Below the pieces are notes generated by a model that saw only the letters and a list, made by a program, of their open reading frames with translations, was not told the DNA's origin and ran no database searches. Made by a program: the position numbers and the translations under genes. From NCBI GenBank assembly GCA_004193545.1, contig RPGO01000033.1, forward strand, positions 3,841 through 67,840: a DNA stretch of 64,000 nt. Direction: 5' to 3'. This DNA is from Candidatus Argoarchaeum ethanivorans (GTDB taxonomy: Archaea > Halobacteriota > Methanosarcinia > Methanosarcinales > EX4572-44). This document shows, one piece after another, positions 1,271-62,641 of the stretch; position 1 is the first letter of the stretch, and each line of letters starts with the position of its first letter.

Positions 1271-1275
1271 TCACC

Positions 1276-17870: not shown

Positions 17871-19653
<1,783 letters not shown>

Positions 19654-38683: not shown

Positions 38684-39517
<834 letters not shown>

Positions 39518-39525
39518 GTGATCTC

Positions 39526-39843
39526 ATGCAGATGATAAGAGCAATCATACGACCTGAAAAAGTGGACGAAGTAGTGGATGAACTGGATTCCAAAGGATTT
39601 CCAGCATTCACGAAAATCGATGTTTTCGGCAGGGGCAAGCAGAAAGGGATACAAATCGGACCGGTTGTTTATGATGAACTGGCAAAGGTGATGTTGATGA
39701 TAGCTGTCGATGACGAGGATGTTGGTACTGTCATCAAAATCATCGAAGACTCTGCGCGGACAGGAAGTTTCGGCGATGGCAAAATCTTTGTAAGCCCGAT
39801 CGATGAAGCCTACACCATCCGTACCGGGGAGCAGGGATTATGA
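39526..39843 (+). CDS. nifI1: nitrogenase-associated P-II protein NifI1
   Basis: It is a 105-aa P-II fold lying between nifH and nifD. Confidence 0.85.
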   Translation: MQMIRAIIRPEKVDEVVDELDSKGFPAFTKIDVFGRGKQKGIQIGPVVYDELAKVMLMIAVDDEDVGTVIKIIEDSARTGSFGDGKIFVSPIDEAYTIRTGEQGL

Positions 39844-40196
39844 GAGAAGTAATCGCCCTGATCCGAATGAATAAGATACAGCGAACCAAAGAGGCTCTGG
39901 CAGAGGCTGGATATCCCTGCCTCACTGCCACCCTCGCTTATGGTCGCGGCAAGCAGAGAGGACTCTACATAACCCCTCTTGGAAACGTTAAACCCGATTC
40001 AAAGAGAGCAGCTATACGATTTATCCCAAAGAGGATGCTAAACATTGTGGTTGACAACGAATCTATCCCGGAAGTGGTTGAGACGATCATGCAGGTCAAC
40101 CGGACAGGAATGATCGGCGATGGAAGGATCTTTGTCTGCCCGATAGAAGATGCAGTCCGTATCCGTACAGGGGAACGAGGCGATGAGGCATTATAA
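39840..40196 (+). CDS. nifI2: nitrogenase-associated P-II protein NifI2
   Basis: It is a 118-aa P-II fold with an extended T-loop. It overlaps nifI1 by 4 nt. Confidence 0.85.
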   Translation: MREVIALIRMNKIQRTKEALAEAGYPCLTATLAYGRGKQRGLYITPLGNVKPDSKRAAIRFIPKRMLNIVVDNESIPEVVETIMQVNRTGMIGDGRIFVCPIEDAVRIRTGERGDEAL

Positions 40197-40267
40197 GCAT
40201 TTGTTCGGTGAACCACACGTCTTGTGTAATCTCGTGATTTTATGCAATGATAGAATAGGAGGAAGCA

Positions 40268-41638
40268 ATGCCACTGACACTACTTGAGTGTGATGTACCA
40301 ATACCTGAACGTGAAAAGCATACCTACATCAAGAAGTCTGGCGAAACGATTATTCCAAGATGCAATGTCCAGACAACGCCAGGAGACCTGACCGAACGCG
40401 GCTGCACGTATGCAGGGTGTATGGGTGTCGTTGGAGGACCTGTCAAGGATGTGATACATCTCGTACACGGTCCGATCGGCTGTGCCTACTACACATGGGG
40501 CGGAGGTCGCAGGCAGAATCTTTCAGATAACACCGGGTTTCACAGAAAGTACTGTTTCTCAACCTCAATGCAGGAAGCAAATATCATCTTCGGCGGTGAG
40601 AAGAAGCTGTACAATGCGATTCTCGAGGCTTATGAGAGGTTTCCTGAAGTAAAAGGCGTATTCGTCTATGCAACATGCGTGATTGGTCTCATCGGAGACG
40701 ACATCGACAAGGTTTGCAAGAATGCATCAAAGGAGATCGGAATCCCAGTCATTGCGTTCAGTTGCGAAGGATTCAGAGGTGTCAGCCAGTCACTCGGGCA
40801 CCACATCGCAAACGATACGATCTTTGAGAAGATCGTTGGCACAAAGGAACCGGATTATCTCACACCGTATGACATCAACATCATTGGAGACTACAACATC
40901 CAGGGCGATCTTTGGGTCATTAATCCACTCTTTGAAGCGATGGGACTCCGGATAATCGGTACGTTCACAGGAAACGCATCGATTGACGATATTGCCATGG
41001 TGCACAGAGCGAAGTTAAATGTGATGCACTGCCAGAGGTCCACCCCGTACATCTGCCAGCTTATGGAAGAGAAATATAATCTTCCGTACATGCCAGTCTC
41101 TCTATTCGGAATCGAGCAGACATCAAAAGCCCTTCGTGATGTAGCAGCCTTCTTTGGTCTCGAAGAAAAAGCAGAAAAGGTAATCGAGGAGGAAGTCTCC
41201 AAGATACTTCCTGAGATGGAGTATTATAAAGAAAAACTCACCGGAAAGCGAGTATTCATCTACCAGGGTGCGCCGCGTGCATGGCACTGGATCAAACTGA
41301 TGGAGGAACTGGGAATGGAGGTAATAGGCGCTGCAACGACATTTGGGCACAGCGATGATTATGAGAAGATCATCGAACGGATTGGTGACGGCGCTCTTGT
41401 AATCGACAACCCGAATTCTGTTGAGCTAAAGGAGATTCTAATCAAATACAAGCCTGATCTCTTTATCTCAGGATTGAAAGAGAAGTTTCTCTCATACAAG
41501 CTCGGAGTGCCGTTTGTAAATGGTCACTCGTACGAGAGAGGACCTTATGCGGCATACAGCGGATTTGTGAAATTTGCACGGGATATGTACACAACGATCA
41601 ATCATCCAGCGTGGAAACTAGTGGAGGGAAGAGCATGA
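40268..41638 (+). CDS. nifD: nitrogenase molybdenum-iron protein alpha chain NifD
   Basis: P-cluster Cys contexts are GCTYAGC, GPIGCAYY and ATCVIGLIGDD. The homocitrate/FeMo-co region is CEGFRGVSQSLGHHIAND. The FeMo-co ligands lie in MHCQRS and NGHSYE. Confidence 0.9.
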   Translation: MPLTLLECDVPIPEREKHTYIKKSGETIIPRCNVQTTPGDLTERGCTYAGCMGVVGGPVKDVIHLVHGPIGCAYYTWGGGRRQNLSDNTGFHRKYCFSTSMQEANIIFGGEKKLYNAILEAYERFPEVKGVFVYATCVIGLIGDDIDKVCKNASKEIGIPVIAFSCEGFRGVSQSLGHHIANDTIFEKIVGTKEPDYLTPYDINIIGDYNIQGDLWVINPLFEAMGLRIIGTFTGNASIDDIAMVHRAKLNVMHCQRSTPYICQLMEEKYNLPYMPVSLFGIEQTSKALRDVAAFFGLEEKAEKVIEEEVSKILPEMEYYKEKLTGKRVFIYQGAPRAWHWIKLMEELGMEVIGAATTFGHSDDYEKIIERIGDGALVIDNPNSVELKEILIKYKPDLFISGLKEKFLSYKLGVPFVNGHSYERGPYAAYSGFVKFARDMYTTINHPAWKLVEGRA

Positions 41639-42942
41639 GCCAAACAAAGACAAAGAGGTCGGTAACGATTAATCCTGGCATGTTGTGCCAGCCAATTGGT
41701 GCGATGCAGGCAGTACTTGGCGTACATGCCGCAATACCGCTCGTGCACGGATCGCAGGGATGCGCTGCCTATCCAATGCGGATGTTCAACCGACACTTCG
41801 CAGAACCAGCAGAGATTGCATTAAGTTCGCTTGGTGAAGATGCTGCAGTCTTCGGGGGAGCAGACAATCTCGTTAAGGGAGTACACGCTCTTGCGGCACG
41901 AAGACATCCCGAATTAATTGCGGTCGTCACGACCTGCCTTTCTGAAACAATCGGAGATGATGTTGATGGCATCCTTAGGAAGGTCGATCTGCCAGTGAAA
42001 CTGGTACCGATGCACACGCCGAGTTATGTCGGTTCGCATGTTACAGGATACGACAACGCGGTAAAAGCACTTGTAACACACCTTGCAGAGCAGACAGGAC
42101 CTAACAGTAAGATCAATGTCACTGTCGGGCTCCTTGATCCCGGGGATATCAAGGAACTCAAGAGCATGCTTGGAATGATGCGGGTCAAAGCGATTATCTT
42201 AACCGATATCACAGGTGCCTTTGATGCACCGTTGATACTGCCAAGACCGCCATTCCCGGATGGCGGAACCACGGTTGGAGAAATCAGGGATACAGCAAAC
42301 TCGATCGGCTCAATAGCCCTCTCTAAACACGCAGGCGGAGCGGCTGTAAAATATCTTGAAATGAAGCACAAGGTGCCGATGATTGCAGGTGCATGTCCAA
42401 TCGGTGTTGAAAATACTGATGCGTTCCTTGATAACGTGAGTCAGCTCACAGGAAGACCAGTTCCGGATGAACTGCGAAAGGAGCGGGGAAGGCTCATCGA
42501 TGCGATCATAGATGTGCAGTTCAAGGTTGCACAGAAGAAGGTTGCGGTCTTTGCAGACCCTGATGTCGCATCCGGGATGGCACGGTTTGTGCATGAACTC
42601 GGGATGGACCCCGTAATCGTTGCAACCGGTACCGAGAGCAAAGAGTTTGTAAAGGATGTACAGGCGATAGCAAGCCAGACCGGGCACGAGATCGAGATTA
42701 TCCTGGGATGCGACCTCTATGAGTTGCACGAGGCGATAAAAAGGGTTGGTGTTGATCTGTTGATGGGAAACACGCACGGGAAGAGTATTGCAGATGATGA
42801 AAAAATCGCTTTTGCAAGACTCGGGTTTCCTGTCTATGACCGTGTTGGCTACCAGAGGATACCGATTATCGGATACAACGGCGGGATCAATCTTGTCGAC
42901 CGGATCGCGAACGCGATTCTGGATCACGCGGACGCGGCGTGA
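41635..42942 (+). CDS. nifK: nitrogenase molybdenum-iron protein beta chain NifK
   Basis: The ATGA start overlaps the nifD stop. P-cluster Cys contexts are HGSQGCAAY, TTCLSETIGDD and the P..SY.GSH region. Confidence 0.9.
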   Translation: MSQTKTKRSVTINPGMLCQPIGAMQAVLGVHAAIPLVHGSQGCAAYPMRMFNRHFAEPAEIALSSLGEDAAVFGGADNLVKGVHALAARRHPELIAVVTTCLSETIGDDVDGILRKVDLPVKLVPMHTPSYVGSHVTGYDNAVKALVTHLAEQTGPNSKINVTVGLLDPGDIKELKSMLGMMRVKAIILTDITGAFDAPLILPRPPFPDGGTTVGEIRDTANSIGSIALSKHAGGAAVKYLEMKHKVPMIAGACPIGVENTDAFLDNVSQLTGRPVPDELRKERGRLIDAIIDVQFKVAQKKVAVFADPDVASGMARFVHELGMDPVIVATGTESKEFVKDVQAIASQTGHEIEIILGCDLYELHEAIKRVGVDLLMGNTHGKSIADDEKIAFARLGFPVYDRVGYQRIPIIGYNGGINLVDRIANAILDHADAA

Positions 42943-43223
42943 ATGCATGGCACTGTTTGGGATGATAGATAGGCTCATCCTGGCGGTGCTGTTGCAGTGG
43001 GGGATGTGAGTATTTTTATAGAGAGTCTGTTAGAAGATTCTCGTAAGACTTATGTGGGATGTGTTCTCGATTAGTGTGCATGGAGTGCAGAGAACTGTGC
43101 AAGGCATTAAGGTAGTGCCTTGGTCTGTGGGAACCATCCTGCTTACATGGATCGGTTGGACATGGATGGAAGGTTGTGGAGCGATACATACAGAATCAGG
43201 AGAAGCCAAATGCGAAATCGCTA

Positions 43224-43262
43224 TGTACAGGCTCCGTACTTAAGTCCGGGGTTTGGTGACTT
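43224..43262 (+). repeat. partial copy (3' 39 nt) of the 63-bp element, ending GGGGTTTGGTGACTT
   Basis: It aligns with 7767-7805. It marks the switch from nif-flank sequence to AT-rich sequence. Confidence 0.6.
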
Positions 43263-43617
43263 CGATGGATGAACCCATGCTCCATTAGCGAAATAAATTC
43301 CAAATATCTGTTGTTGAATTCTTTATATGTGTTAAAAAGAATGAAAAAATTCCCAGAGAAACATCAAAAAAATAAAATTTGTGCCTCATTCAAAAAATTG
43401 CTAAATAGCACCAATTTACTAAAGAAAGTGTATTAAAAAAGCTATTTGATCCATCCATTCAACTTTTGCGGAAATTCAGACATCTAAACAATATAATAGA
43501 GAGCTTTCAGAGTTATGATCTTAGAGAGGGGGTACAAGTATATCCATAGTTGGGGAAAGTAATATTTATCTTAATGCAAGTAAGTTACATTATTTGAGAA
43601 TATGGAATAGGGGTAAT

Positions 43618-44370
43618 ATGAGGTTTTTTTTATATGCATCGAAGGCAAAAATAGATATGTTATACTCACAAATAAGTAATAGTCATATTGAAACTACATC
43701 TACGAAGAAGTTGAATACAAAAATCGCTTCAATAGAGAGTAAAAAGATAAGTAAAACTATTAATGATATTTATTTAAAAATTCCATTTATAGAGAGACAA
43801 TTAGAAAAAAATCAACAGGTCATAGATATCGAAAAATTAGATAAACAGAATATAAAACCTTATCTAAATAATACAGGAATTTGGAATGTTTCACCCATTA
43901 AAAAAAAGTATGTTTTGGATGAACAAGTTGAGGAAGTTGCACCCACGGTTTATTGTCTCTTTAGACAATACCAAAATGTTCTCTACTTTTTAATTGGTTC
44001 ACCATTAAACTTAACTGGACAGCATGGTATCACGCCGAATTATACTTATGTATCTCCCACATGGACAGCTGATGAATATATCATGAATCTCGTTGATTCA
44101 GGATATTCAGACAAATTTTATTTTGATAGGATTTTGCCGGCATTGCTTGGGTATTGCTCAAAAGTATGTTCCTTTCTACCGCAAATGCACATTGAGCTTC
44201 TCTTTAAAGTGTATCACGTTTACAGCATTAACGATGAAGTGTTAGATGAAGCAGTTTCACATTATTCTATCGAAAATTTTAAAGATAAGCCAAATTTTCT
44301 TGTTATTGGATCTCCAATATTTGTATGTTTAGCTCAACCAAAAATTCAAGGAAGAAGATTTAATGAGTGA
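43618..44370 (+). CDS. hypothetical protein (island gene A)
   Basis: ATG 43618 gives MRFFLYASKAKIDMLYSQI... It is 250 aa with no motif I can assign. Its stop overlaps the next start (ATGAGTGA). Confidence 0.55.
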   Translation: MRFFLYASKAKIDMLYSQISNSHIETTSTKKLNTKIASIESKKISKTINDIYLKIPFIERQLEKNQQVIDIEKLDKQNIKPYLNNTGIWNVSPIKKKYVLDEQVEEVAPTVYCLFRQYQNVLYFLIGSPLNLTGQHGITPNYTYVSPTWTADEYIMNLVDSGYSDKFYFDRILPALLGYCSKVCSFLPQMHIELLFKVYHVYSINDEVLDEAVSHYSIENFKDKPNFLVIGSPIFVCLAQPKIQGRRFNE

Positions 44371-44815
44371 AGTAGGAAGTGTCTATGCGTGGCAAGGTGA
44401 AATAGATGGTAATCAACTAATCGGAATGCAGTATTTAAGTAAGTCAAGTTTTGGTATTTTCATCGCAAAAGAAGCTAAAAGAATAGTTATTGGTTTTCTG
44501 GATGACGATAAAGTTATTGGATATCATTATTTACTAAAAAAAGATATAAAGAATCTGCAAACATTTTTTGAAGGCAATACTGAAATAAAAGAGTTAACGA
44601 AATTCGAGGAAAAACGGCCTATAGGCATAATGCTGGGATACGAACTTCAGTTAGTGAATACATCAGAAAAGTCTATACGCATGTATGCAAATTTACCAGT
44701 ATTTGATGATCAAGTACTGTTTGCTCTGACAGAATGTAATAAAGAATTCTGCTGTGTAGCATTTAATCTCAATGAATTAATATCGATAAAAGCACTTATA
44801 GATAGTTTTAATTGA
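44363..44815 (+). CDS. hypothetical protein (island gene B), translationally coupled to gene A
   Basis: It is 150 aa with an 8-nt overlap with gene A. No recognisable motif. Confidence 0.55.
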   Translation: MSEVGSVYAWQGEIDGNQLIGMQYLSKSSFGIFIAKEAKRIVIGFLDDDKVIGYHYLLKKDIKNLQTFFEGNTEIKELTKFEEKRPIGIMLGYELQLVNTSEKSIRMYANLPVFDDQVLFALTECNKEFCCVAFNLNELISIKALIDSFN

Positions 44816-44922
44816 AATACAACATTAAAGCTTATAACTTTCCTAATAAAAATCCCACGCATGATTTGAAAATAAAAAGCAGACAAACTTACAAAATATA
44901 AAATTTGAGCATCCTCTTGATG

Positions 44923-44953
44923 CCTCCCGTTTCTAGCGGGAGGTCGTGACTTA
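44923..44953 (+). repeat. hairpin plus TCGTGACTTA junction motif
   Basis: CCTCCCG-tttctag-CGGGAGG is followed by TCGTGACTTA. Compare GGGGTCGGTGACTTA at 7792-7806. Confidence 0.65.
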
Positions 44954-45131
44954 TATTATGGTAAAATTATATATAGGAAAAATAAGTAGAAATGAAACGA
45001 CGAAAAGAAAAATTGTGGAAGGAATCACAGTCAAAAGCGTTCGCCTATAGGGATGTGTATACAAACAATGTTCAGATATAAGTTGTTATATAACATTTTG
45101 GATTTGAGACAAAATTGATAGAGGAGAAAAA

Positions 45132-46964
45132 ATGGAAAATCTAACCAATAAGATAATTATTGAAAGGATAGAAATGGCTTTTGGTAAAAGAATCGTCTTT
45201 TTCGTCGGCGCTGGGATATCAGTTCCCTCAGGAGTTCGAGACTTTAAGAAATTGACTGAAGAGGTTATACAAACGCTTGCAGACGATGAACTTGAAGAGC
45301 TTGAGGAGAAAGATCTTGAAAAGAAAAAGAAGGATTATGAATTACTCACTGAGAACATTCGGCCTGAGGTCATGTACCAGATGGCGATGGACGAACTAGA
45401 CTCGAAAGTACTTTATTCTTTGGAAATGTTGGAGGGATACGAGCCGAATTATTACCATTATTTCTTGGCAGAGGTTATCAGGCGAGGTAATTGGGTATTT
45501 ACTACAAATCAAGACAATTTGATAGAGGAAGCTTGCAAGAGAAGGGGAATGAAACCGGAGGTAGATTTCAAAACATATTATGGCCGCGGCAATGACGAGG
45601 ATTTCAGAGAATACCTTCGATATATAAATTCTGGGGATATATATAGAGGGTGTATATTCAAGTTGCATGGTAGCATCGAGGAGGATGCAAGGGGAGAAGA
45701 AAAATATAAGACAGTTCGATTTTCACTCCGACAGGTTGGGGAAGGGTTATTTGGACCTAGAAAGGAAGTTCTCGAATATTTCCTTAAGGAATTCGATTTC
45801 TGCTTCATAGGCTACAGATGTAGGGATGACTTTAGCGTGTTCCCTGTGCTTTCAAGTACGAAAAGTGACAAGAATATATTTTGGTCTCGTTTTGATGAAG
45901 GACCCCTTAGTTTATACATTCCAAAAGAAGACAGGCTTCTGTGGGAAACGGAAAAAGAAGAAAATAAACCATTAGATGAGAAGAGGAATTTAGATCTGCT
46001 CAATATAAATGAGGTTCTCTTGCAAAGAGGCAAAAAGTTCGTATTCAGTGGTAACTTAGGCGAATTCATAAACGTTAAGCTGCCCACTCTATTAGGAGTT
46101 AAAAACCTTTCTTTTGATGAAGAAAAAGCAAGGGAAAAAGGAAAGGCGAAGGAAAGTGGGGCTTTCTTCAGATGGGCTAAGAGTAAAGAGAAGTTTGAGC
46201 GGTATCTATTCCTGGGACGTTTATTTGAGCACGCGGGTAAGTTGAATAATGGAATTGAGTCCTGTAGCAAAGCATTAGGCGAGGCAAAGAATGATTTCCA
46301 ACTTATAAGGGCAAAACAGAAACTGGCTGATCTTTACTACAGAAGACAAGAAGGGGATGATGAAGGGGAGGCGAGCAAGCTTTATGAGCAATGTATTAAT
46401 TCCTCTAAGGATCCACTTGAAAGGGCAAGTCTGAAGGCCAGCCTCTCCAATATTCTACGCAGGCGAGGGAAAGATTTTTACTCTGAAGCATATGTGACGG
46501 CAGAAAAAGCAAAAGAAGAATTTGAAACGTATATTATTGAGGGGAAGGGTAAGGGGTTGGATTATGCTAGGTGCTTAAATATTCATGGATTGGCCCTTTA
46601 TAGTATAGGCAAGTTTGAGGAGGCAAGGAAATCCTGTTCAGATAGCATAAATGTAAAGCAAGATTTGGGCGACGTTGATGGGATAGCAGAATCAGAAAAT
46701 GGAATAAGCTTAGCCTTTACCCAGGAGGGTAGAAGGCTTAAAGATCAAGGAAATAAGGAAGAAGCCAAAGATAAATTTTTTAAAGCTATTGAGCATGCAA
46801 GAAGAGCTCTTGATTGTAGGCGAAAGATAGGAAATTTTAGAGGGTATGCTCAGAACAGCCGTAACTTGGCTTGGCCGAATAGCGAGCTGATGAAACTTGC
46901 CTCGAAAGAAGATGAAGACAAGAATACTTCAAAAAAGCAAGAGATGGTTACAAAGCCGGGATAA
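45132..46964 (+). CDS. SIR2-family (sirtuin-like NADase) domain fused to TPR-like repeats; zero-frame product
   Basis: It reads VFFVGAGISVPSG, TTNQDNLIEE and KLHGS. The C-terminal half is helical-repeat-like. No Walker A is seen. Confidence 0.75.
   Translation: MENLTNKIIIERIEMAFGKRIVFFVGAGISVPSGVRDFKKLTEEVIQTLADDELEELEEKDLEKKKKDYELLTENIRPEVMYQMAMDELDSKVLYSLEMLEGYEPNYYHYFLAEVIRRGNWVFTTNQDNLIEEACKRRGMKPEVDFKTYYGRGNDEDFREYLRYINSGDIYRGCIFKLHGSIEEDARGEEKYKTVRFSLRQVGEGLFGPRKEVLEYFLKEFDFCFIGYRCRDDFSVFPVLSSTKSDKNIFWSRFDEGPLSLYIPKEDRLLWETEKEENKPLDEKRNLDLLNINEVLLQRGKKFVFSGNLGEFINVKLPTLLGVKNLSFDEEKAREKGKAKESGAFFRWAKSKEKFERYLFLGRLFEHAGKLNNGIESCSKALGEAKNDFQLIRAKQKLADLYYRRQEGDDEGEASKLYEQCINSSKDPLERASLKASLSNILRRRGKDFYSEAYVTAEKAKEEFETYIIEGKGKGLDYARCLNIHGLALYSIGKFEEARKSCSDSINVKQDLGDVDGIAESENGISLAFTQEGRRLKDQGNKEEAKDKFFKAIEHARRALDCRRKIGNFRGYAQNSRNLAWPNSELMKLASKEDEDKNTSKKQEMVTKPG
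46931..46937 (+). promoter_or_regulatory. candidate -1 frameshift heptamer A AAA AAG, in phase with the SIR2-TPR zero frame
   Basis: The zero-frame codons are tcA AAA AAG. The -1 frame is open from 46916 through 47284. Confidence 0.4.
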
Positions 46965-47284
46965 GCTATTGGGATCGTTTCTATCCTGCACCTGCTACCG
47001 AAAGTGTACTTTTTAGAAATCTTTTAGCTAGGTTGTATATTGATTTTTGCTCTCTGACAGAAGATCAAGAGCAAAAGAAAAGGTGGGCTCAAGAGGTCAT
47101 TCTCATTCCCATGTATGGGGTGATACTTGGAGACTCAAAGAGAAGGCAAAAAGCCAAAGAGGATAAGCGTACGCCTACTGCCGAGCAAAATCTAGAAAAT
47201 ATTAAAGAGATGCTCAAAGAGGTTAATTTAGACTCAGAACAAAAGGAAGCGGAGAGAATGCTCAAGGAGCTAAGAGAGGAGTAA
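46937..47284 (+). CDS. -1 frame continuation of the SIR2-TPR gene (ORF track lists only 47033-47284 from a TTG)
   Basis: It reads ARDGYKAGISYWDRFYPAPATESVLFRNLLARLYIDFCSLTEDQEQKKRWAQEV..., which is helical and repeat-like. Confidence 0.5.
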   Translation, partial: ARDGYKAGISYWDRFYPAPATESVLFRNLLARLYIDFCSLTEDQEQKKRWAQEVILIPMYGVILGDSKRRQKAKEDKRTPTAEQNLENIKEMLKEVNLDSEQKEAERMLKELREE

Positions 47285-47359
47285 GGAATTTCGAAAGTTG
47301 TCTCAAAGCCAAAACTCGAAGAGAATAATAAAACACTTAAACATTATTTGGAAGAGCTT

Positions 47360-47668
47360 ATGTTAAAAATGTTGCCTGAAATTTCAGGGGAATTAATTGC
47401 ACAAGAATCAAAGAGGCTTGAGGAAGTTAAGCAGCTTTCAACACTTGAGAATACAGATATGTTTGAATATCTCAAAAGTATGTTTCTTTTTTCAATATCG
47501 GATTATCGAGAAGCTGTAATAGCAAGTAAATCGGGTGATGAATTTCTTGAAAAGCTGTCCGAATATGTAAAAGATAAATTTTGGAAATTAGAAATTCGCA
47601 ACATGGGAGACGTAATGGTTGATCTTAATCTATCTAGAGAAATACTTGGGCTCAATCCTATTGAATAA
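47360..47668 (+). CDS. hypothetical protein
   Basis: It is a 102-aa ORF from ATG 47360, AT-rich, with no motif. Confidence 0.4.
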   Translation: MLKMLPEISGELIAQESKRLEEVKQLSTLENTDMFEYLKSMFLFSISDYREAVIASKSGDEFLEKLSEYVKDKFWKLEIRNMGDVMVDLNLSREILGLNPIE

Positions 47669-48515
47669 ACATTGGCAATAAGATTTGAAAAAAGTGATAT
47701 TTATGCAAATATTGAAGCCTATGCAATTTTGAGTAGATTACATAGTTACGCATATAGAGAATACTTTATCCCACAAACTAAAAGGAATATAAAAACCTGA
47801 GCATCCATCCGATGCCCTATATTTGAGCGAATCGAAATCCGAGGTCGTTGACGTTAAAAGTCTCTGATAAACCGTATGGAAGAATAACCTGTTCAAAACA
47901 TCCATAGCCAACCAACCCCCATGTAAGCTTATGATCCACATTCCGTATCCCCCCAGATGCCCACAAAAATTTAAGCGACCATCAGACACAACAGGGGGTC
48001 TTGATCATGCATGTTAAAAAAAACCATAACCCTCTCTAAAGAACTGGAGAAGTGAGGTGGAAGACCACTTTATAGGCACATCATATTACTCAAATCTCTC
48101 GGACGCCATAAGAGATGGGCTCAGAAAGATTCTTGCAGAGTACAAGAAAAAAAATGAGGTTGAGATTGCTGCAACCCTCTGCAAAGAGGAAGATAACGCT
48201 GCGGGAAGCTGCTGCCATAATGGACGCCCCTGTGTGAAAAACTTCTGGGGAGCTTGGTTGGGGGGGGCTGTGTACCTGGGATACGGAATAGAAGAAACCG
48301 GAAGAGGATCCTGGATGATCACTGTAAGCGATTCCACCCCCTTTCATCTATTTTGGAACGATCAAGCGACCCCATCTTCTTTGATCCATATACGGTCAGG
48401 TCATAATCACAGAGGTGGTGCACCGGGAAGTATTAACAGAAGGAATCGCTTTTGGTGACGGATGCCAATCTTTTTGGAAAAGGCGATTGAGGACTATTAT
48501 ATTAATTTCTGAGAT

Positions 48516-48569
48516 TATAGTCAAACATCTAACCTTTAGAACTTTTGAATGTGTGGCGCAAATTTATTA
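48516..48569 (+). repeat. solo IS630-type terminal sequence
   Basis: It is about 90% identical to 22617-22670, which abuts the IS630-family transposase remnant. Confidence 0.6.
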
Positions 48570-48640
48570 ATCCATGATTTAGCGTAACTTAATTTCTTTG
48601 AACATTCAAAGAACATCTTTGATATTACACGATTCAATAC

Positions 48641-49302
48641 AGAGCCTGTCCCATAATTAACATCGTTCCGATACTTTTATCACTCTTCCAGCCATATTAT
48701 GTAATATGGCGTTCATTAGAAGGCTTCACAATCAAAACTGGTTATTTCCCCCAAGTATTTCAGATTTAATCGATGAAGACCATGTTTGCAGACTTGTAGA
48801 TGAAGTAGTGGAGAGCATTGACCTTGGAAATATCGAAGAAAGGTATGATGGCCCTGGCAGTCCAGCGTATCATCCAAAGGTTATGATGAAGCTTCTTATC
48901 CAGGGTACTATCGATGGGATTCGGTCTTCTCGTAGGATTTCCAAGGCAACAAAGGAAAATGTTGTCTATATGTACCTTTCAGACCGATTAAATCCGGATT
49001 TTCGTACGATCTGTAGGTTTAGGAAGGATAATTTAGATGTTATTAAACTTGTTTTTGCCGGGATCATAAAGTTAGCTAGGGGAATGAATATGGTAAACCT
49101 TGGTCATTTGAGCATTGATGGTACGAAAATCAAGGATATTGAAGCGAATACTGTTGAAAATAGATGGTATAATCACACTTCACTCAAGAAACTATGCGAA
49201 AAACTAAGAAAACATGGTCTAATCTCTTGTATTCCATAAGCGAAAGTTTAAGACATAATCCAACTATTCAGCACCATTGAACCCAGTTGTGGGACAGGCT
49301 CT
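48641..49302 (+). mobile_element. internally deleted IS1182/IS5-like element
   Basis: 13-bp perfect TIRs AGAGCCTGTCCCA (48641-48653) and TGGGACAGGCTCT (49290-49302) flank it. ORF 48706-49239 keeps only the N-terminal transposase region (..GSPAYHPKVMMKLLIQG..SSRRI...). Confidence 0.65.
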
Positions 49303-49404
49303 TCATTGCATAGTGGCGCAGACGTGACTTTTCAAAATATAGTGAGGTAAAAAATCACTGGTTTTTTAGATAGTGTCTTACGCAGTAATCAAGATCCTCA
49401 AAAA

Positions 49405-49519
49405 CTGCACAACTTCATTGTGCAAAACCGCACACACTCATATGCGAAAACAATTCTTGATTGTGCTATCAATCAAGTGTAGAAGTAACCGGTAATTCTC
49501 GATTGCGCAAGCAATCGAG
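49405..49519. repeat. cluster of three hairpin repeats
   Basis: The hairpins are CTGCACAAC-ttc-ATTGTGCA (49405-49424), CTTGATTG-tgctat-CAATCAAG (49456-49477) and CTCGATTGC-gcaa-GCAATCGAG (49498-49519). Confidence 0.85.
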
Positions 49520-49549
49520 TGCGACAGCAATCAAGTGGAGCAACAGGTT

Positions 49550-53690: not shown

Positions 53691-56600
53691 TCATCGAATC
53701 TTACCACCAAACAGAGGACTAACTTCAGCCTGTAAAATCATTAGAGCATCAACAGAACTTACCTTGCCATCTTGGTTTATGTCTGCTTCTGCACTCCATT
53801 TGCCACGTACTGCCATCTCAAGCACACTCGCAGCATCTATACATTTTACTGGTGGTCGTGCTTGTGTATAAACTACAGAAGTCCCCGCTCCCTGTGTATT
53901 TGTATAATAAAGAATACTGTTACTTATTCCAGCACCGACACTATATGGAATATTGTTCAAATAGTTATAATTGAATCTGATTGTTCCATTTTCATATAAT
54001 ATTACTTCAAAAAGGTCCTTGTTGAGACATCCTCCACCACAAGTCCCGGTGTACCAGACTACAACTACTCTGTCTCCTTTATCCTGAACCGATATATTTG
54101 TTTCTTCACCACACGACTGAGACAGATCGCCCCAGAAGGGAGCTATTGCCTCGGTATTTTCTAAATGCGGCGAGCAACAATGGCTCGAAGTATCAGGCAG
54201 GAATGTAATCAATCCATTTGTGCTAATCTGTATGGAACTATGATTTTCACAGAAGAACGTGAAATTCCAGGGAAGGACATAATTATAGGAGCAGTCATCA
54301 CAGCCGGTCCAATTTTGGTCTGGCGTGCTAATCCCATCCCAATCATAAGTAACGTATTCTTTAGTATAAGTATAGCATGGAGGAATTGTCTGGAAATCGG
54401 TGTAGTTGTAATACGAAGTTATGTATGCATCTTCTATGTAATCAAATTGAACACCGGTTGAGGAATTATATAAATACAAATACTTCAGATTGTACGGTCC
54501 ATTGACCCCATTCTGTCGGATTTTAATTCCTTCGAAATTGAGTTGCACGGTTTGACTGCCAGTACTTAAGTAGGTGGTATTGGATTCGTAATCTATTTGA
54601 TATCCAGTAATATCATACAAGTATCCATATACTCTATAACTTCCAGCAGTGGTCACATTCACACCTATATCTAAGGTTAAATTATTATACAATCCACCAC
54701 CATCGGTATCTGTTCCATTATCTGAATAAAACTCGTTGAACTCAGCAGGCAGTCTCTGGAAGTCGGTGTAGTTGTAATATGGGGTGGTGTAAGCATCGTA
54801 TATGTAGTCAAGTTGTGTCCAATCAGTTGTATTGTATAGATATAAATACTTCAAATCAAATGTTCCATTGACCTTATTTTGCCTGATCTTTATACCCTCA
54901 AAGTCAAGTTTAACGGTTTGGTTTCCCGTGTTTAGGTAAGTATAGTTATTTCTCCATTCTATATAGCCTCCATGACAATCATTCAGTCTTCCCTCTACTA
55001 TGTAGTTACCTGCCTTTGTCACATTCACGCCGACATCTATTGTTAAGTAGTTATACAACCCATCGCCATCGATATCGATTCCGTGATCTGAGTAAACATC
55101 ATTAAACTCCGCCGGTGGCTTCTGGAAGTCAGTCCAATCGTAGTCGTTGGTAAAGTACTCCATTTTATCTATATGTTTCCATTCTTCAGTCTCATAAAGG
55201 CTTAACCATGTTCTGAAGCTTCCGTTATGCTCTGTGTTATATATCCTGATTCCGTCAAACTGTAATGTGATATTATGAATGCCAGCATCGAGATATGTTC
55301 TGTTCCAATCACTGTCAATTCCCCACCAGTAACCCTCTTCTTCATCGTAATACTGCAAATTTCCACTTAATTCATATTCTCCCGCCTTTGTGACGTTTAT
55401 CTCTGCTTCTATCACAAGATGGTTGTATAAAGTATCATTATTTGTGTCTAATCCATAGTCACTAAAGTTTCCAGTAAATTCTGGTGGTTTATCAAAATCA
55501 GTATAGCTATAATAGAAAGTAGTATCAGTTGCCCGACCTAACCACCTCCCATTATCCCTATCATATAAATCCATGTCCACATCGAAGTTGCCAGAATCTC
55601 CTGATAGATATATGCTTGGTCCATAGAATTTAAGCGTCACATTGTGCAATCCCTCATTTAAATACGTATGATTTGAATCAGAATCAAGCCATTGTCCTGA
55701 AGGTGCTCTAAGCGAACCGTATAGCTTATAATTACCAGCTTCTCTTACTTCTATTCCTTTTTCAATCACCAGATAATCATAGAGCGAGTTATTGGTTGTA
55801 TCCAATCCATAGTCGTTGAATCCTGATGTGAATTCTGCTGGGGGCTTTTGGAACTCGGTGTAATTGTAATGATTTGTGGTACATGCATAGCGTCTATAAT
55901 CAAATTCCTCTCCGTAAAGAACCGTGAAGTTATTTGTATTCCCTGTTGCTTTTGTTTCTGATTTTTCAAGTGGTGGTACTTCTTTAGCGGGTGGATGCCC
56001 TATTGGTTGTGGTACCGGATATGTATAGGTTACATTGTATAGACGAAGATATTTTAAGTCGTAAGTTCCGTTATACTCATTTTGTCTCAGTTTTATTCCA
56101 TCAAATCTTAATTGAACCGTTTGATTCCCTTTGTTTAGATAAGTCATGTTGCTGTCATAATCTACAGAATTATACGTTCCCTTTTCATACAAAGACCCAC
56201 TTATCCGGTAGTCTCCATCATCTCTTACGTTTACACCCACATTTATCACCAAATAATTATACAATTCATCCTCATCTTTATCCTCTCCGTAATCTGAGTA
56301 TATATCGTTGAATTCTGCACCGGGTGGTTGAAAATCAGTGTATTCGTAGTAAGAAGTAACGTATGCATCATGTCTACTATCTTGCTGAACATAATCATCA
56401 CCGTATAGCCTAAGATATTTTAGATAATAGGGACCGTCAGCTTTGTGCTTACGAATCATAAGTCCATCAAAATTGAGCTTGATTATCTGTGTTCCATTCT
56501 CAAGATATGCAGAGTTTCCTTCGTATGCGATGCTGTTACCATAACTATCATATAGCTCAGCATACCAGCGGTAATTGCCTGATTCTGATACATTCACACC

Positions 56601-59600
56601 TATACCAATAGAAAGATAGTTATGAAACGTGTCGTCGTCTGTATCAATACCTGAGTCATTGTAAACATCTGTGAAGACTGCCGTTGGTAGTTGGAACTCT
56701 TTACTATCATAAGATGATGTGTTATATGCTTTCAATCTCCTATCAATAGTGTTCCAATAGTTATCTCTGAGTCTCAGGTTGGTAAGCGTGTAAGGTCCAT
56801 TCAGATCAACCCTGTGAATGTCTATTCCATTAAAGAGCAATGTTATATTCTGTTTGCCAATTGATAAGTAGGTATTATTTCTTGCATCTGTAATGCAAAA
56901 CCCATTTAATGTCTCTATGTCGCCATACAAATAATAAAAATCTGCTTTGGCAACATTTACACCAACATCTATTGCAAGATAATCATACAATCCATCGCTG
57001 TCCAGATCGATGCCATAATCAGCATATATATCGGTCAAAACCGCTTTGGGCACTTCTACATAACGGGTTGCCAGATTATTTACCACATAACCTTCACCAG
57101 GAACAGGTTCTGCATAGACTGAAACATTGTAGTATCCAACTGCAGTAGGCGTCCAATTGAAATTTATCGTTGTATCCGTTCCGTTTTGGATAAGGGGAAT
57201 GGTTTTGCTGCCTAATTTTGTTCCATCTACCAATAAGTCTATGATCACATCTGTTTCGCTGTTCAACCCGGTATTTGCTATTGTCGCATTTATCTGTGCA
57301 GAAACATTGATTCCAACTATACTGGGTGCATCAATTAATACCTCTATATCATGCGCCTGTGGAGGCAATGTAATCCACCTGAAGATGTTTCTCCCAAAGA
57401 TTCCGTTATCAGCATTATAAATATAAGCTAAGACCTCATCTGAAATTACAACGACTTTTCCATTTCCATATCGTCTCACACCAATCATTTTATTCCCAGC
57501 GACATCTCTTGCAACATCTATGGCTGGCGAATACACGTTAAGAGAATTTACCGGACTAAAGTATATACTTGAAACGCCTCTTGTTATACTATGCATTGAT
57601 ATATCGGTTGATTCGCCGTAGTATCCCTGAATGCCACTGTATGACATGTTAAATACATTTACAATTGTTGGATCTCCCAGTTCATCTCCTTCAACAAAAA
57701 GACCGCCTCCATTTTCAACATACGTAGCAAGAGCACTTTTTTCATTAGTGCTCCAACTACCTCCTCGCTCATCAATCCAAATTGCATCATAATTATTTAG
57801 TAGCGAAAGCGAAATCGGTCCGGAAGTGATATCTGATACAATAAAGCCCTCACTCTTTATGTCATCGATTATGTCAATATACCAGGATGACGGTCTTCCT
57901 CCATGTGTTGTATCATATCCTATTATGTAGATATTTGATAAAACATTTATACCTCTTGATGCCAGATTATTTATCGTGACGCTTTCACCTGGCACAGGTA
58001 CTGCATGCACTGACACATTATACGAACCTTCTTCATAATGTGTCCATGTAAAATTTACCGAGCAATTTGTACCGCTATCCAAACTTGTAATTGTTTTTGT
58101 CGCATCGATTGAACCGTTTATAAGTAATTGCACTGTGATATTGGTTTCGTTGTTCAAGCCATTATTAAATATGGTTGAATTTATCGGTATTGACTTATTT
58201 ATTTTTATATACTCTGGAATAAAAAGCAAACTCACCTTAATATCGTGCTCCTGTGGTATTGCCATAGGTAATGCAAACATCGCATCCACAACACCCCAGC
58301 CATAATTGTTATCAGGTCCTATTATACCTCTATCAACGGCAGTATCCATTAGTATCTCCTTTATCTCAAGCGGCGCTAAATTTGGATTGTATTCGAGCAT
58401 CAGTGCAGCGACGCCAGCAACGTGAGGAGTTGACATCGAGGTTCCACCATGAGGTACATAACCATTTCCAGTATCAGCCTCGGCAGACGTAACATCTACA
58501 CCAACGGCACATACCTCTGGTTTTGTCCTTCCATCAGCAGTAGGACCGCGTGATGAGAAATAAGCAATGTCCATGTAATCGTCAATTGCACCCACTGTAA
58601 TAACTTTTTTAGCGCATGCCGGGTCACCAACCGTTTTACCACCCCACATACCAGCATTTCCAGCAGCAACCGAAACAACTATTCCAGCATCTACGGCAGC
58701 ATCACAAGCCAATGCCATCGGAGTGGTTCCATCATTGTTGTAGTCTCTACCCAAACTCATTGAGATTATCTTTATGCCATAATCATCTTTATTTTGAACA
58801 GCCCAATCTATTCCAGCAATGATCGTTGATTCTCTGCCCGAGCCCCATTTATTAAGCACCTTAACCCCAACCAATTTTGCACCTGGTGCAACCCCCTTAT
58901 ATACAGAGGGGCCACCCGTGCCTGCTGCAATACCAGCACAATGAGTTCCATGCCCATGATCGTCATAAGGATCAGGATAAAAATTAACGAAATCCTTAAA
59001 ACCAATTATCTTTGGATCGCTTGTTGCAAGGTTGTCATCCATATCGTCCAGTGACTCGTGTGCATCGTCAATGCCTGTATCAATCACTGCTATGGTCACG
59101 TTAGACCCTGTAACATTGTATGCGATTCTTGCCGTATCTGCCTTGATTACCGGTACACTCGAATCCAAGTATGCTTGCACCTTATGATCCTCGTAAACCA
59201 TTTTAACATCTTGAATTGTTGATAATTCATACAGTCTGTTACAAGGAATGCTTATTACTGTAGCGTTTATAACAGAATAATCATATTTTATTTCTGCGTC
59301 AATTAACGAATAATCGGTTACGGTGAGATCAACACTTTGGTTATACAAGACAATAACATCAATCTTTAATACATTCTCGCCGCTTGCTTTAAACTCTAAC
59401 GAATCTTCAATTTTATTGTTGTTAGCATCAAAAGCTGTCACATCGCTTTTTCCTGTAATAGAGACATCATCATAAGTAATATCTACAACATCAATTTCGT
59501 TTTCGCTTATGTTTATATCAGAATGGATTTCATTGTGAATGCGATCCACCCAACTTAAATTTGTTACTTCATTTGGTTCTGTTATTCCAAATAGCGATCT

Positions 59601-59798: not shown

Positions 59799-60358
59799 TT
59801 GTTAATTCTCCTATAGACAAATAATAAACACATATAATTAATAACACATAAGATTTTCGATTCATTTTTTGTATGTGCTTCGAGCTGTCTTGACAAGGAC
59901 AGTACTACGAATTTTGCCCCAAAGCAAGGAGTATGCAAAAGATAAAATACAGGATCAAGTATTGACAGATAATATTTATGACTTTGTTACAGCCAATACT
60001 TGTAACCTGTGGTCTGCCGGGGCTGTCAACTTGTTGGGTGTTATACCAGAACTCTAATTTCTTTCATACGTTCAAACCCAGAACAGTAGACATTATACCT
60101 GAATATACAACCAGGTCGAAACAATACCAACACCCAATAACTTTACAACCACCTTTAATGTAATTACCATGTACATACAATCTAGCATCATTATCTGTAT
60201 ATTCGTTCGATTCTTTGTTTTTGCAGGGGCTAGTATAACGATTCCAAATTAATCTTACAATAATCATACCACAATTCTGCCAGGCATATCATCCATTTTG
60301 TATTTCCACTTAAATATCACTGGAGTTTCGTTTATATCATCAAAATATTGACTTATGC

Positions 60359-61457
60359 GATCAATGGAGTATCTCAACGATTTCGTGAAATGGGGCGTAA
60401 AGTTGCGCGAGAGAACTGACCCGGCACATATTTTGCTTCTGGTCAATGATGGAAAAAGGAAATGGAGATAAAAGATACGCTGCGGATCAGCAGGGCAAAT
60501 CCGTTTCCAAACAATTCAAGAAGAAATACCGCGAAGAAAGTTCCAAAACGCCCCTCGCGGAGAAACCAACATCCGGTCAGCCTAAAAGTATACAGATGAA
60601 ACATGCGGCGGAAGTTATAGAGCTGCAGGCATGCAACTGAATCACCTGATGGGGCGCAAGAGATGGACACACTACACTACTACCAGGAAGAAAATGCGAA
60701 GAAGGATGGGTTTGAAACGATAAAACAAAGAGAGTATCAGGCTTATTTTAAAAAGCAAAACTAAACCCGGTTAAGGCGTGGATGTGGTGCATACAGACGA
60801 TCGATTACCGAATACAGAGCGAGAACGGATGTACGATGTTTCCGATCTGTAATGAAGAACTGTAATGAATTCCGGAAGTCCCATTGTCTGTTTTGACGAG
60901 AAACCAAAGCAACTTGAGATAAAAGGATTTCCATCCCTATGAAGCCTGGAATCCTCGTGAAATATGATTATGAATATATCAGGAACGGTACAGCAAACAT
61001 ATTCATGGCGGTCGAATCAAAGCAGGAAACGGTGACGAGGATCACCAAAAGAAGAACTATGGTGGATTTTGCAATAATTCGTGAAGATGCTTGTCGATGA
61101 AGAATAATTGACGTTGAAAACATCCAACTATCAAGGCGGATAACCCTCAATAATTACAAGGAAAAGTCATTTTACGAGGCATCTAAAGTGAGGAGGAGGC
61201 GGGAAAGGATTTGAGCTAAGATCGAGTTTCCATTACACGCCAAAACATGCAAGCTGGCTTAATGCCGCTGAAATCGAGATCAATGATGGATATCGAATGC
61301 ACTGACAGACGGATTGGAGATATGGAGACACTGGTCCGGGAAGTGGCCGTATTTTGACCAGGAAACGGAATGACGATGAAAAGAAAATCAACTGGGGCTT
61401 CATTGAGGGAAGGCGATAAGAAACTGGTCCAAGCATTATGTCTAAGACTAAATTCAT
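60359..61457 (+). pseudogene. heavily decayed IS630-family transposase gene
   Basis: Fragments in several frames read EYLNDFVKWG..AHILLL, VCFDEKPKQL, KYDYEYIRNGTANIFMAVE, HYTPKHASWLNAAEIEI and KINWGF. Confidence 0.65.
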
Positions 61458-62450: not shown

Positions 62451-62594
62451 TTAATAACTTATCAATTCGTCTTTAATCTTGTTCCGTGCCGAATATTGGC
62501 TTTGAAAGCTCTGGTTCAAAATACGTAAGCGCCCCATTTTCACGAAATCGTTGAGATACTCCACCTCTTTCTCTGTAAGTTTTATTTTTTCCAT
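62451..62594 (-). pseudogene. N-terminal fragment of another IS630-family transposase
   Basis: It reads MEKIKLTEKEVEYLNDFVKMG... The stretch 62530-62563 is an inverted copy of 60364-60396 (one indel). Confidence 0.5.
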
Positions 62595-62641
62595 AGAATA
62601 TGGTTGGACTCACAGGTTTATAAACTTTGTCTAAAAATTAA

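What the first reader, a model, noticed from the sequence alone, without database searches (positions are those of the whole stretch)
45132..47284. SIR2-TPR gene is split exactly at an in-phase A-AAA-AAG slippery heptamer
ORF 45132-46964 opens with sirtuin-type motifs (VFFVGAGISVPSG, TTNQDN, KLHGS) and runs straight into helical TPR-like repeats. I see no Walker A or STAND NTPase between the two parts, unlike the described SIR2-STAND-TPR architecture. The zero frame stops at 46962-46964. The -1 frame is open from 46916 to 47284 and keeps reading repeat-like sequence (KARDGYKAGISYWDRFYPAPATESVLFRNLLARLYIDF...). The only obvious switch point is A AAA AAG at 46931-46937. It is phased X XXY YYZ relative to the zero frame, which is the classical dnaX-type -1 site. 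That would give a 610-aa short form and a roughly 717-aa long form of a putative NAD-depleting sensor/effector. A homopolymer assembly error (A6 versus A7) or a true pseudogene are equally simple explanations.
Basis: partly seen in the sequence, partly recalled or inferred. Interest (0 to 1): 0.8.

Follow-up and report, generated by a model that had tools for sequence, protein, structure and literature searches.

The report
Frameshift-broken SIR2-TPR defence-type gene
This is one archaeal copy of a sirtuin-plus-helical-repeat gene of the anti-virus NAD-destroying type, broken by a single missing base found in no relative; the "slippery" A-AAA-AAG nearby is ordinary lysine-coding sequence that fell into a suspicious phase, not an evolved frameshift signal.

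Summary
The coordinates, the 610-aa ORF, the open -1 frame and the in-phase A-AAA-AAG (46931-46937) are all real. The N-terminus is a SIR2_2 domain with no NTPase between it and the helical repeats. The gene is not split at the heptamer, though. DNA alignment with six intact orthologues shows one non-triplet gap: a 1-nt deletion at 46915-46916 (GAAG where the closest orthologues have GAAAG), 15 nt upstream of the heptamer. The native frame resumes at 46916 (RQEYFKKARDGY...). The closest orthologues carry the same CAAAAAAG, read in frame as Phe-Lys-Lys-Ala; more distant ones have AAAGAG. A 1-nt deletion upstream of an in-frame AAA-AAA pair automatically gives the X-XXY-YYZ phase. All 60 aligned full-length homologues (694-784 aa) are uninterrupted and keep the C-terminal ~116 residues. 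The 610-aa product is in a cluster of one (NCBI RZB28934.1, Candidatus Argoarchaeum ethanivorans MAG). No stimulatory RNA structure follows the heptamer, and in-phase slippery heptamers are common in this window. Best reading: a very recent inactivating deletion, or a consensus error, in an uncharacterised DSR-like SIR2-TPR gene lying in a low-GC island. Incidental low-level slippage cannot be excluded. Reads are needed to separate mutation from artefact.

The parts
45132..46964 (+). Zero-frame ORF of 610 aa, annotated in NCBI as AEth_01538 / RZB28934.1. It holds the SIR2_2 domain (about aa 1-330; GAGIS at 26, TTNQDN at 124, KLHGS at 177) and then a helical TPR-like solenoid. The last 16 codons (DKNTSKKQEMVTKPG*) are out-of-frame junk.
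46915..46916 (+). Site of the 1-nt deletion. The window reads GATGAAGACAAG. The closest intact orthologues (L001, L007, L008) read GATGAAAGACAAG; L002-L005 read GATGAGAGACAAG and L006 GATGAAAAACAAG. This is the true frameshift lesion.
46931..46937 (+). A-AAA-AAG heptamer. It is ancestral TTC-AAA-AAA-GCA (F-K-K-A) coding sequence. It sits in the X-XXY-YYZ phase only because of the deletion 15 nt upstream. It is a possible site of incidental, unselected -1 slippage.
46916..47284 (+). Native-frame C-terminal remainder (122 codons plus stop), corresponding to the last seven helices of the solenoid. It has no further stops or frameshifts. NCBI calls only its last 57 codons, as AEth_01539 / RZB28935.1.
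47100..47110 (+). In-frame 6-nt insertion private to the window copy (EVILIPMYGV versus EVIPIYR[MV] in orthologues). Coordinates are approximate.
44945..45131 (+). Upstream non-coding region nearly identical to that of orthologue L001. It contains TTATATAA about 40 nt before the ATG and AGAGGAG just before it. I read it as the probable promoter and leader that travel with the gene (inference).
43000..49500 (.). Low-GC island (31-41% against 43-51% in the flanks), lying between the nifH/PII/nifDK-like cluster and the trpD/trpF genes. It holds a DUF7019 gene, a 150-aa gene, the SIR2-TPR gene, small ORFs and a truncated DUF772 transposase.

Best explanation
The locus is a single-gene SIR2-TPR protein. 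An N-terminal sirtuin-type NAD-binding domain, predicted to consume NAD, is fused directly to a C-terminal TPR-like alpha-solenoid, which I infer to be the sensor or oligomerisation part by analogy with DSR2. In this one assembly of Candidatus Argoarchaeum ethanivorans the gene carries a 1-nt deletion at 46915-46916. The ribosome therefore leaves the native frame after ...ASKEDE, reads 15 junk codons and stops at 46962-46964. The result is a 610-aa product that lacks the last seven helices, which every homologue keeps. The A-AAA-AAG heptamer is inherited Lys-Lys coding sequence, and its slippery phase is a by-product of the deletion. The lesion is very recent, or it is a consensus error: the downstream part has no second lesion and no excess of non-synonymous change. 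Shown here: the position of the deletion, its uniqueness, the intact orthologues, the domain content, and the defence-island context of relatives. Inferred: NADase and anti-virus function, loss of function of the truncated product, and that the lesion is more likely a real mutation (about 2:1) than an artefact. The confidence given is for 'an ordinary 1-nt lesion, real or artefactual, and not programmed recoding'.
For:: the window gene has a single non-triplet gap against six orthologues, at 46914/15; two more intact close relatives read GATGAAAGACAAGAATACTTCAAAAAAGC; 118 homologues were found, and the full-length ones cover 97-100% of the fused query without interruption; all 60 aligned homologues retain at least 106 of the 116 C-terminal positions; K606 and K607 are Lys in only 24 and 28 of 60; the 610-aa product is a cluster of one, and all members of the nearest cluster whose sequences were retrieved (P0001, P0119-P0121, P0127, P0130) read KEDERQEYFK(K/E)A through the site; the RNA downstream of the heptamer folds no better than shuffles (z = +0.31); in-phase slippery heptamers are frequent in the window's other long ORFs; dN/dS downstream of the lesion is 0.27-0.51, within the 0.35-0.73 seen among intact orthologues; the AlphaFold2 model has pLDDT 89.7, and the lesion falls between helices 574-594 and 598-619 of a continuous solenoid; about 30 other genes in the window have end-to-end Pfam coverage, so there is no sign of a high indel error rate. 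SIR2_2 domain, and DSR2 and ThsA as the nearest solved relatives; relatives lie beside a Hachiman-type helicase, a PNP-STAND-TPR protein plus Mrr, HEPN/HD-CE/another SIR2 protein, and Z1-DUF4420-AIPR-Dcm.
Against: No reads were available, so a real mutation and an assembly or consensus error cannot be separated. An in-phase A-AAA-AAG does sit inside the 46-nt overlap. The one proven archaeal -1 PRF (fucA1 of S. solfataricus, A-AAA-AAT, 40-bp overlap) is likewise a two-ORF gene with an A-rich heptamer in a short overlap. Some rescue by slippage is therefore not excluded. The clean downstream frame also fits continued selection on a slipped product. No member of this SIR2-TPR family has been tested for NADase or defence activity.
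Confidence: 0.85

Rival explanations
1. Assembly or consensus artefact. The organism's gene is intact (GAAAG), and the MAG consensus dropped one A, or fixed a minority variant, at 46915-46916. This is a sub-case of the best explanation's 'ordinary lesion'; the confidence given here is its share of the total.
For: The lesion is private to one assembly. The downstream frame is perfectly clean and shows no relaxed-selection signal. The change is a one-base length difference in a short A run.
Against: About 30 other genes in the window show full-length Pfam matches and no second frameshift, so the indel error rate of this assembly is low. A run of 2-3 A is not a typical error hotspot. The repaired 717-aa sequence is not found in any other assembly in the collection, although that is only weak evidence.
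Confidence: 0.3
2. Incidental, unselected -1 ribosomal slippage at A-AAA-AAG partly suppresses the deletion. This would yield a small fraction of a 717-aa protein with DKNTS in place of RQEYF, so the allele is leaky rather than null.
For: The heptamer is in the right phase inside the only window where a -1 shift restores the native frame (46916-46961). There is an archaeal precedent at a similar A-AAA-AAT with about 10% efficiency in vitro (PMC8211752).
Against: There is no downstream stimulatory structure. The slipped product would replace the conserved Y604 and F605 (Tyr in 44/60 and Phe in 51/60) with Thr and Ser. The heptamer is not conserved beyond the closest relatives. From general knowledge: A-AAA-AAG is highly shifty in E. 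coli because that organism lacks a tRNA-Lys(CUU), and whether this archaeon has one was not tested. No tRNA genes lie in the window.
Confidence: 0.12
3. Programmed, selected -1 frameshifting that produces regulated short (610 aa) and long (717 aa) isoforms of the sensor/effector.
For: An in-phase heptamer and a short overlap are present. The -1 ORF is family sequence.
Against: No orthologue or homologue has the two-ORF arrangement, and there is no natural class of about 610 aa. The lesion is 15 nt upstream of the heptamer. In intact relatives the heptamer is in-frame Lys-Lys and is not conserved. No stimulator is present.
Confidence: 0.03

Closest known systems
DSR2 (defence-associated sirtuin 2, Bacillus subtilis; PDB 8k98, 8wkt, 8z18 and others)
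   Same: A single polypeptide with an N-terminal SIR2 NADase-type domain followed directly by an all-helical repeat solenoid, with no NTPase. DSR2 is the best PDB sequence match through the SIR2 domain (E = 5.5e-8) and gives full-length Foldseek hits. Relatives of the window gene lie in defence islands.
   Different: The window family is about 720 aa, against about 1005 aa for DSR2. Its solenoid is TPR-like: the best fold matches are the LGN/Pins TPR domains (TM-score 0.70 normalised by target length), not the DSR2 MID/CTD. Overall TM-score to DSR2 is only about 0.25. No PADLOC Dsr2 model hit was obtained, and Dsr1 matches only about 50 N-terminal residues. The trigger, oligomeric state and activity are untested.
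SIR2-STAND / Avs-type NLR-like defence proteins (SIR2 effector + STAND NTPase + TPR sensor)
   Same: A SIR2 effector and a TPR-type repeat region in one protein, in a defence-island context.
   Different: No STAND or P-loop module is present. There is no NTPase Pfam hit and no Walker A motif. In the model the Rossmann-type domain runs straight into the helices at about residue 333.
fucA1 alpha-L-fucosidase of Saccharolobus solfataricus P2, the only demonstrated archaeal -1 PRF
   Same: Two ORFs with a short overlap (40 bp there, 46 nt here) and an in-phase A-rich heptamer (A-AAA-AAT there, A-AAA-AAG here) (PMC8211752).
   Different: For fucA1, frameshifting was shown experimentally and a putative stem-loop is described. 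Here nothing is shown, no structure beats shuffles, and the alignment places the genetic lesion upstream of the heptamer.
dnaX-type -1 PRF of E. coli (A-AAA-AAG)
   Same: The identical heptamer in the identical phase.
   Different: From general knowledge, dnaX has an upstream SD-like stimulator and a downstream stem-loop, is conserved among relatives, and makes a functional shorter product. None of these features is found here.
Thoeris ThsA (SIR2-SLOG)
   Same: SIR2 domain similarity (PADLOC ThsA E = 1.4e-6; PDB 6lhx E = 2.3e-5).
   Different: There is no SLOG/STALD ligand-binding domain and no ThsB/TIR partner gene next to it.

Membership tests
Programmed -1 ribosomal frameshift site (dnaX / fucA1 type) | In-phase X-XXY-YYZ heptamer inside the ORF overlap | tested here: met
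   A|AAA|AAG at 46931-46937, within the overlap 46916-46961
Programmed -1 ribosomal frameshift site (dnaX / fucA1 type) | The two-ORF arrangement and the heptamer are conserved among orthologues | tested here: not met
   All full-length homologues are uninterrupted. The heptamer is in-frame Lys-Lys in L001, L007 and L008, and is AAAGAG in L002-L006
Programmed -1 ribosomal frameshift site (dnaX / fucA1 type) | Downstream stimulatory RNA structure | tested here: not met
   The MFE of 46938-47030 is -17.4 kcal/mol against a shuffle mean of -18.4 (z = +0.31)
Programmed -1 ribosomal frameshift site (dnaX / fucA1 type) | Both products are detected, or frameshift efficiency is measured | not testable with these tools
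   Needs proteomics or a reporter assay
SIR2 superfamily (Pfam SIR2_2, PF13289) | Profile match above the curated cut-off | tested here: met
   37.6 bits against a cut-off of 24.5, aa 122-234. PF02146 scores 22.7, just under its cut-off of 24
SIR2 superfamily (Pfam SIR2_2, PF13289) | NAD-binding GAGxS loop and the conserved Asn and His of the active site | tested here: met
   G26-A27-G28-S30, N129 and H182 (P0001 numbering) are invariant in 60 homologues. The window has GAGIS at 26, TTNQDN at 124 and KLHGS at 177. Their assignment as catalytic residues is by analogy with sirtuins, ThsA and DSR2 (general knowledge)
SIR2 superfamily (Pfam SIR2_2, PF13289) | NAD-consuming activity | not testable with these tools
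   Needs a biochemical assay
Defence-associated sirtuins DSR1 / DSR2 | N-terminal SIR2 fused to a C-terminal helical-repeat sensor, with no NTPase | tested here: met
   AF2 model: strands and helices up to about residue 330, then all-helical to 720. Foldseek gives full-length hits to DSR2
Defence-associated sirtuins DSR1 / DSR2 | Full-length sequence membership in the PADLOC Dsr1 / Dsr2 profiles | tested here: not met
   Dsr1 is matched only over aa 20-71 (E = 1e-5) and there is no Dsr2 hit. The PDB DSR2 match is limited to aa 6-145
Defence-associated sirtuins DSR1 / DSR2 | Activation by a phage structural protein, and protection against phage | not testable with these tools
   Only the defence-island context of relatives is available
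SIR2-STAND-TPR (Avs-like) | Central STAND / P-loop NTPase with a Walker A motif | tested here: not met
   No NTPase family in Pfam and no [AG]xxxxGK[ST] motif
TPR repeat proteins | TPR profile match or TPR fold | tested here: met
   By sequence the match is sub-threshold: TPR_12 scores 28.3 bits against a cut-off of 30.1. By fold the LGN/Pins TPR domains are the top Foldseek hits, with TM-score 0.70 normalised by target. The feature is therefore met by fold and borderline by sequence

The most novel reading that the evidence does not exclude
The private 1-nt deletion is real and is partly suppressed by -1 slippage at the fortuitously phased A-AAA-AAG. The archaeon would then make mostly a truncated 610-aa SIR2-TPR and a few per cent of a near-native 717-aa protein. 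This would be a second, naturally arising archaeal case of the fucA1 type, in a predicted NAD-depleting immune gene, where dosage reduction could lower self-toxicity.
Probability: 0.1. Interest if true: 0.55.

Novelty: new member of a known kind. Interest (0 to 1): 0.2.

Why it matters
For the frameshift claim the result is a useful negative. It shows how a plain 1-nt deletion upstream of an in-frame AAA-AAA pair mimics a textbook dnaX-type site, and that a DNA alignment with orthologues resolves the question at once. What remains of interest is the gene family. It is a compact (about 720 aa) SIR2 plus TPR-solenoid protein with no NTPase. It is present in more than a hundred metagenomic and MAG sequences; those that carry a source name are mostly labelled as archaeal (Argoarchaeum, Methanosarcina, Bathyarchaeia, Asgard-type), and two carry bacterial labels. 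The five relatives whose neighbourhoods were read sit next to known or candidate defence genes in four cases. Defence databases cover it only through its SIR2 domain. It is a reasonable candidate for an archaeal DSR-like single-gene abortive-infection system, but the copy in this window is probably non-functional.

Tried and rejected
1. Exact look-up of the 610-aa product in the contig index found nothing. Look-up of the repaired 717-aa protein among 15 billion sequences also found nothing. No independent assembly of the same strain could therefore be used in place of reads.

2. A genome-contig scan with the repaired protein returned one locus, L007, which is intact. A metagenome-contig scan with a pattern accepting either A2 or A3 returned one locus, L008, also intact. 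No second copy of the lesion exists in these collections.

3. I tried to read Chen et al. 2019 (doi 10.1038/s41586-019-1063-0) for the sequencing technology, but it is not held. Searches for 'Eth-Arch1' and 'Argoarchaeum ethanivorans' gave no assembly details.

4. Rfam found no family anywhere in the window. ARAGORN found no tRNA, so the tRNA-Lys repertoire could not be assessed.

5. A literature search for 'SIR2-TPR' found no paper.

6. I looked for a second frameshift in the window as a proxy for assembly error rate and found none among about 30 genes with Pfam coverage. The overlap of 239-1270 with 1171-3147 turned out to be two separate genes, the second starting with a signal-peptide-like N-terminus.

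7. Rejected: transcriptional slippage or phase variation. From general knowledge, A6 and A2/A3 runs are too short for either.

8. Rejected: a link between the upstream DUF7019 pair and the SIR2-TPR gene. The orthologue loci L006 and L007 have different neighbours.
Full report
OBSERVATION. ORF 45132-46964 encodes 610 aa and ends at TAA 46962-46964. A run of six A followed by G occupies 46931-46937 and is phased A|AAA|AAG in that frame. The -1 frame is open from 46916 to 47284, and a slip at the heptamer would give 717 aa. Pfam places the N-terminus in SIR2_2 (PF13289, 37.6 bits against a cut-off of 24.5). The canonical SIR2 model is just under threshold, and TPR_12 is sub-threshold for the middle part. 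There is no Walker A motif and no NTPase family hit. The descriptive part of the finding stands.

WHERE THE GENE IS REALLY BROKEN. A search with the fused 717-aa sequence returned 118 homologues. The full-length ones (about 694-822 aa) cover 97-100% of the fused query in a single uninterrupted protein. The only exact counterpart of the 610-aa product is NCBI RZB28934.1 (AEth_01538) from a MAG of Candidatus Argoarchaeum ethanivorans. It forms a cluster of one. The same record annotates a 57-aa remnant, AEth_01539, downstream.

I fetched DNA for six orthologues of 82-92% amino-acid identity and aligned the genes. The window copy has exactly one gap that is not a multiple of three. That gap is a single missing base at 46914/15. 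The window reads GATGAAGACAAG; the closest orthologue L001 reads GATGAAAGACAAG, L002-L005 GATGAGAGACAAG and L006 GATGAAAAACAAG. Two further intact relatives, L007 (93%) and L008, also read GATGAAAGACAAGAATACTTCAAAAAAGC. In window coordinates the lesion is the A2 run at 46915-46916, which is A3 in the closest orthologues, 15 nt upstream of the heptamer.

The -1 frame accordingly reads native protein from its very first codon: RQEYFKKARDGYKAGI..., identical to the orthologues' ...KEDERQEYFKKARDGYKAGI.... The zero-frame DKNTSKKQEMVTKPG* is junk.

WHY THE HEPTAMER LOOKS PROGRAMMED. In the intact close relatives the same CAAAAAAG is read TTC-AAA-AAA-GCA, that is Phe-Lys-Lys-Ala. A 1-nt deletion upstream of any in-frame AAA-AAA pair puts the incoming ribosome in the A-AAA-AAN phase, and the frame reached by a -1 slip is then the native one. 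The 'classical phasing' is therefore a consequence of the lesion, not an independent coincidence.

The heptamer is also not conserved. The 82-85% orthologues have AAAGAG, and across 60 homologues the two positions are Lys in only 24 and 28 sequences. The RNA downstream folds no better than shuffled sequence (z = +0.31). In-phase slippery heptamers are common in this 41% GC window: 78 X-XXW-WWZ sites in 14,489 codons of the ORFs I took as genes, eight of them A-AAA-AAG in ORFs other than this one.

WHAT THE PROTEIN IS. An alignment of 60 homologues (29-88% identity to P0001) has invariant G26-A27-G28-S30, N129 and H182. These are the NAD-binding loop and the Asn and His expected in a SIR2 active site. 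There are further invariant or near-invariant positions right through the C-terminal tail (A608, Y612, P624, P626, E629, L640, Y665, A687, L691). All 60 retain at least 106 of the 116 tail positions, and there is no natural class of about 610 aa.

AlphaFold2 on this alignment gives a confident model (pLDDT 89.7, pTM 0.85). It shows a strand-helix SIR2 domain to about residue 330, then a continuous helical solenoid to residue 720. The lesion falls in the loop between helices 574-594 and 598-619, so the truncated product loses the last seven helices.

Foldseek against the PDB gives the LGN/Pins TPR domains (TM-score 0.70 normalised by target) and full-length alignments to DSR2. A profile search of PDB sequences gives DSR2 first (5.5e-8) and ThsA further down, in both cases through the SIR2 domain only. 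PADLOC models hit only the SIR2 part (SIR2, LmuA, ThsA, and about 50 residues of Dsr1).

Neighbourhoods of relatives are typical of defence islands:
- a Hachiman-type HamB helicase (L006);
- a PNP-STAND-TPR protein and an Mrr-like nuclease (L009, L010);
- HEPN_Swt1, HD-CE and a second, 1188-aa SIR2 protein (L011);
- Z1-DUF4420-AIPR plus a cytosine methylase (L013).

Close orthologues sit in unrelated contexts; L007, for example, follows Cdc48 and a GH38 mannosidase. In the window the gene lies in a low-GC island (31-41% against 43-51% in the flanks) that also holds a truncated DUF772 transposase. The island sits between a nifH/PII/nifDK-like cluster and trpD/trpF.

The best functional reading, by analogy and not shown, is a mobile single-gene immune protein of the DSR type. 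Its TPR solenoid would sense a trigger and release the SIR2 domain to deplete NAD+.

MUTATION OR ARTEFACT. The downstream part has no second stop or frameshift. Its dN/dS against orthologues (0.27-0.51) lies within the range seen for that segment among intact orthologues (0.35-0.73), while the upstream part gives 0.20-0.24. The lesion is therefore either very young or not real.

About 30 other genes in the window match their Pfam models end to end, and I found no second frameshift. This argues against an error-prone assembly and tilts me towards a real mutation, at roughly 2:1. Loss of a costly NADase gene in a long-maintained enrichment culture would be unremarkable, although that is an inference. 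I could not obtain reads, an independent assembly of the same strain, or the sequencing methods.

COULD SLIPPAGE STILL HAPPEN? It is not excluded. The only proven archaeal -1 PRF, fucA1 of S. solfataricus, uses A-AAA-AAT in a 40-bp overlap, with about 10% efficiency in vitro (PMC8211752). Here a slip would give a 717-aa protein with DKNTS in place of RQEYF, replacing the conserved Tyr604 and Phe605 (Tyr in 44/60 and Phe in 51/60) with Thr and Ser. Without a stimulator, without conservation, and with a lesion that explains the phase, I rate selected frameshifting at about 3% and incidental measurable leakiness at about 10-12%.

VERDICT. The interpretation as programmed recoding is not supported. 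The gene is a frameshift-disrupted (or mis-assembled) member of an uncharacterised, mostly archaeal SIR2-TPR family. It works like the DSR sirtuins but is not a sequence member of DSR1 or DSR2, and it lacks the STAND module of Avs-type proteins. Interest is low for the frameshift and modest for the family.

Noticed in passing
L001 about 2430-2489; L007 8206-8267; also L002, L003, L006 and L008, downstream of the orthologous genes: A palindromic element of about 62 nt (CGGTGTAAAAGA...TCTTTTACACCG; RNA fold -24.1 kcal/mol, z = -3.8) lies about 35-45 nt after the stop codon of the orthologues. Many independent contigs (2.3-2.5 kb, and the 12,973-nt contig behind L007) end inside or just after it, which suggests a multi-copy repeat that breaks assemblies. 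It is absent from the window (0 matches with up to 3 mismatches).
   Followed up: partly
window 43594-44815: A DUF7019 gene (258 aa, PF22880, E = 8e-13) overlaps by 8 nt a 150-aa gene with no family hit. Both lie in the lowest-GC part (31-33%) of the island, just upstream of the SIR2-TPR gene. They give no PADLOC hit and are not linked to the SIR2-TPR gene in the orthologue loci.
   Followed up: partly
window 48706-49239: A truncated transposase. Only the N-terminal DUF772 domain (177 aa) is present, with no DDE domain before trpD starts at 49535. It is an IS remnant at the edge of the low-GC island.
   Followed up: partly
window 7894-9526: An apparently intact type II restriction-modification pair: an R.HinP1I-family endonuclease (282 aa, E = 1e-51) followed by an N6/N4 DNA methylase (288 aa, E = 2e-60).
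   Followed up: no
window 38699-42942: A nifH-like gene (Fer4_NifH, full length), a P-II gene and two Oxidored_nitro genes (nifD- and nifK-like) immediately precede the island. An Amt ammonium transporter plus P-II lie at 17871-19653.
   Followed up: no
window 53691-59798 (- strand): A 2035-aa predicted surface protein with a subtilase S8 domain, CARDB and DUF4785 repeats, and a C-terminal dockerin-like segment.
   Followed up: no
L007 (JABCSP010000035.1): The 93%-identical intact orthologue sits on a contig binned to a 'Candidatus Thorarchaeota' MAG, with stated coverage 0.37. P0003 (85%) is labelled 'candidate division WS2 bacterium' and P0033 'Syntrophomonadaceae'. Such high identity across such distant labels suggests mis-binning or recent horizontal transfer of the gene.
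   Followed up: no
whole window: AAAAAAG is over-represented: 40 copies against 24.4 +/- 5.1 in dinucleotide-preserving shuffles, with none of 100 shuffles reaching 40. Its phase distribution within the ORFs taken as genes shows no avoidance of the slippery phase (7, 6 and 9 across the three phases).
   Followed up: partly
window 60064-60670 (- strand): Three small ORFs (75, 60 and 67 aa) are chained by 4-nt overlaps and have no Pfam hits. They may form a small operon of unknown function in an otherwise ORF-poor stretch (59800-62700).
   Followed up: no
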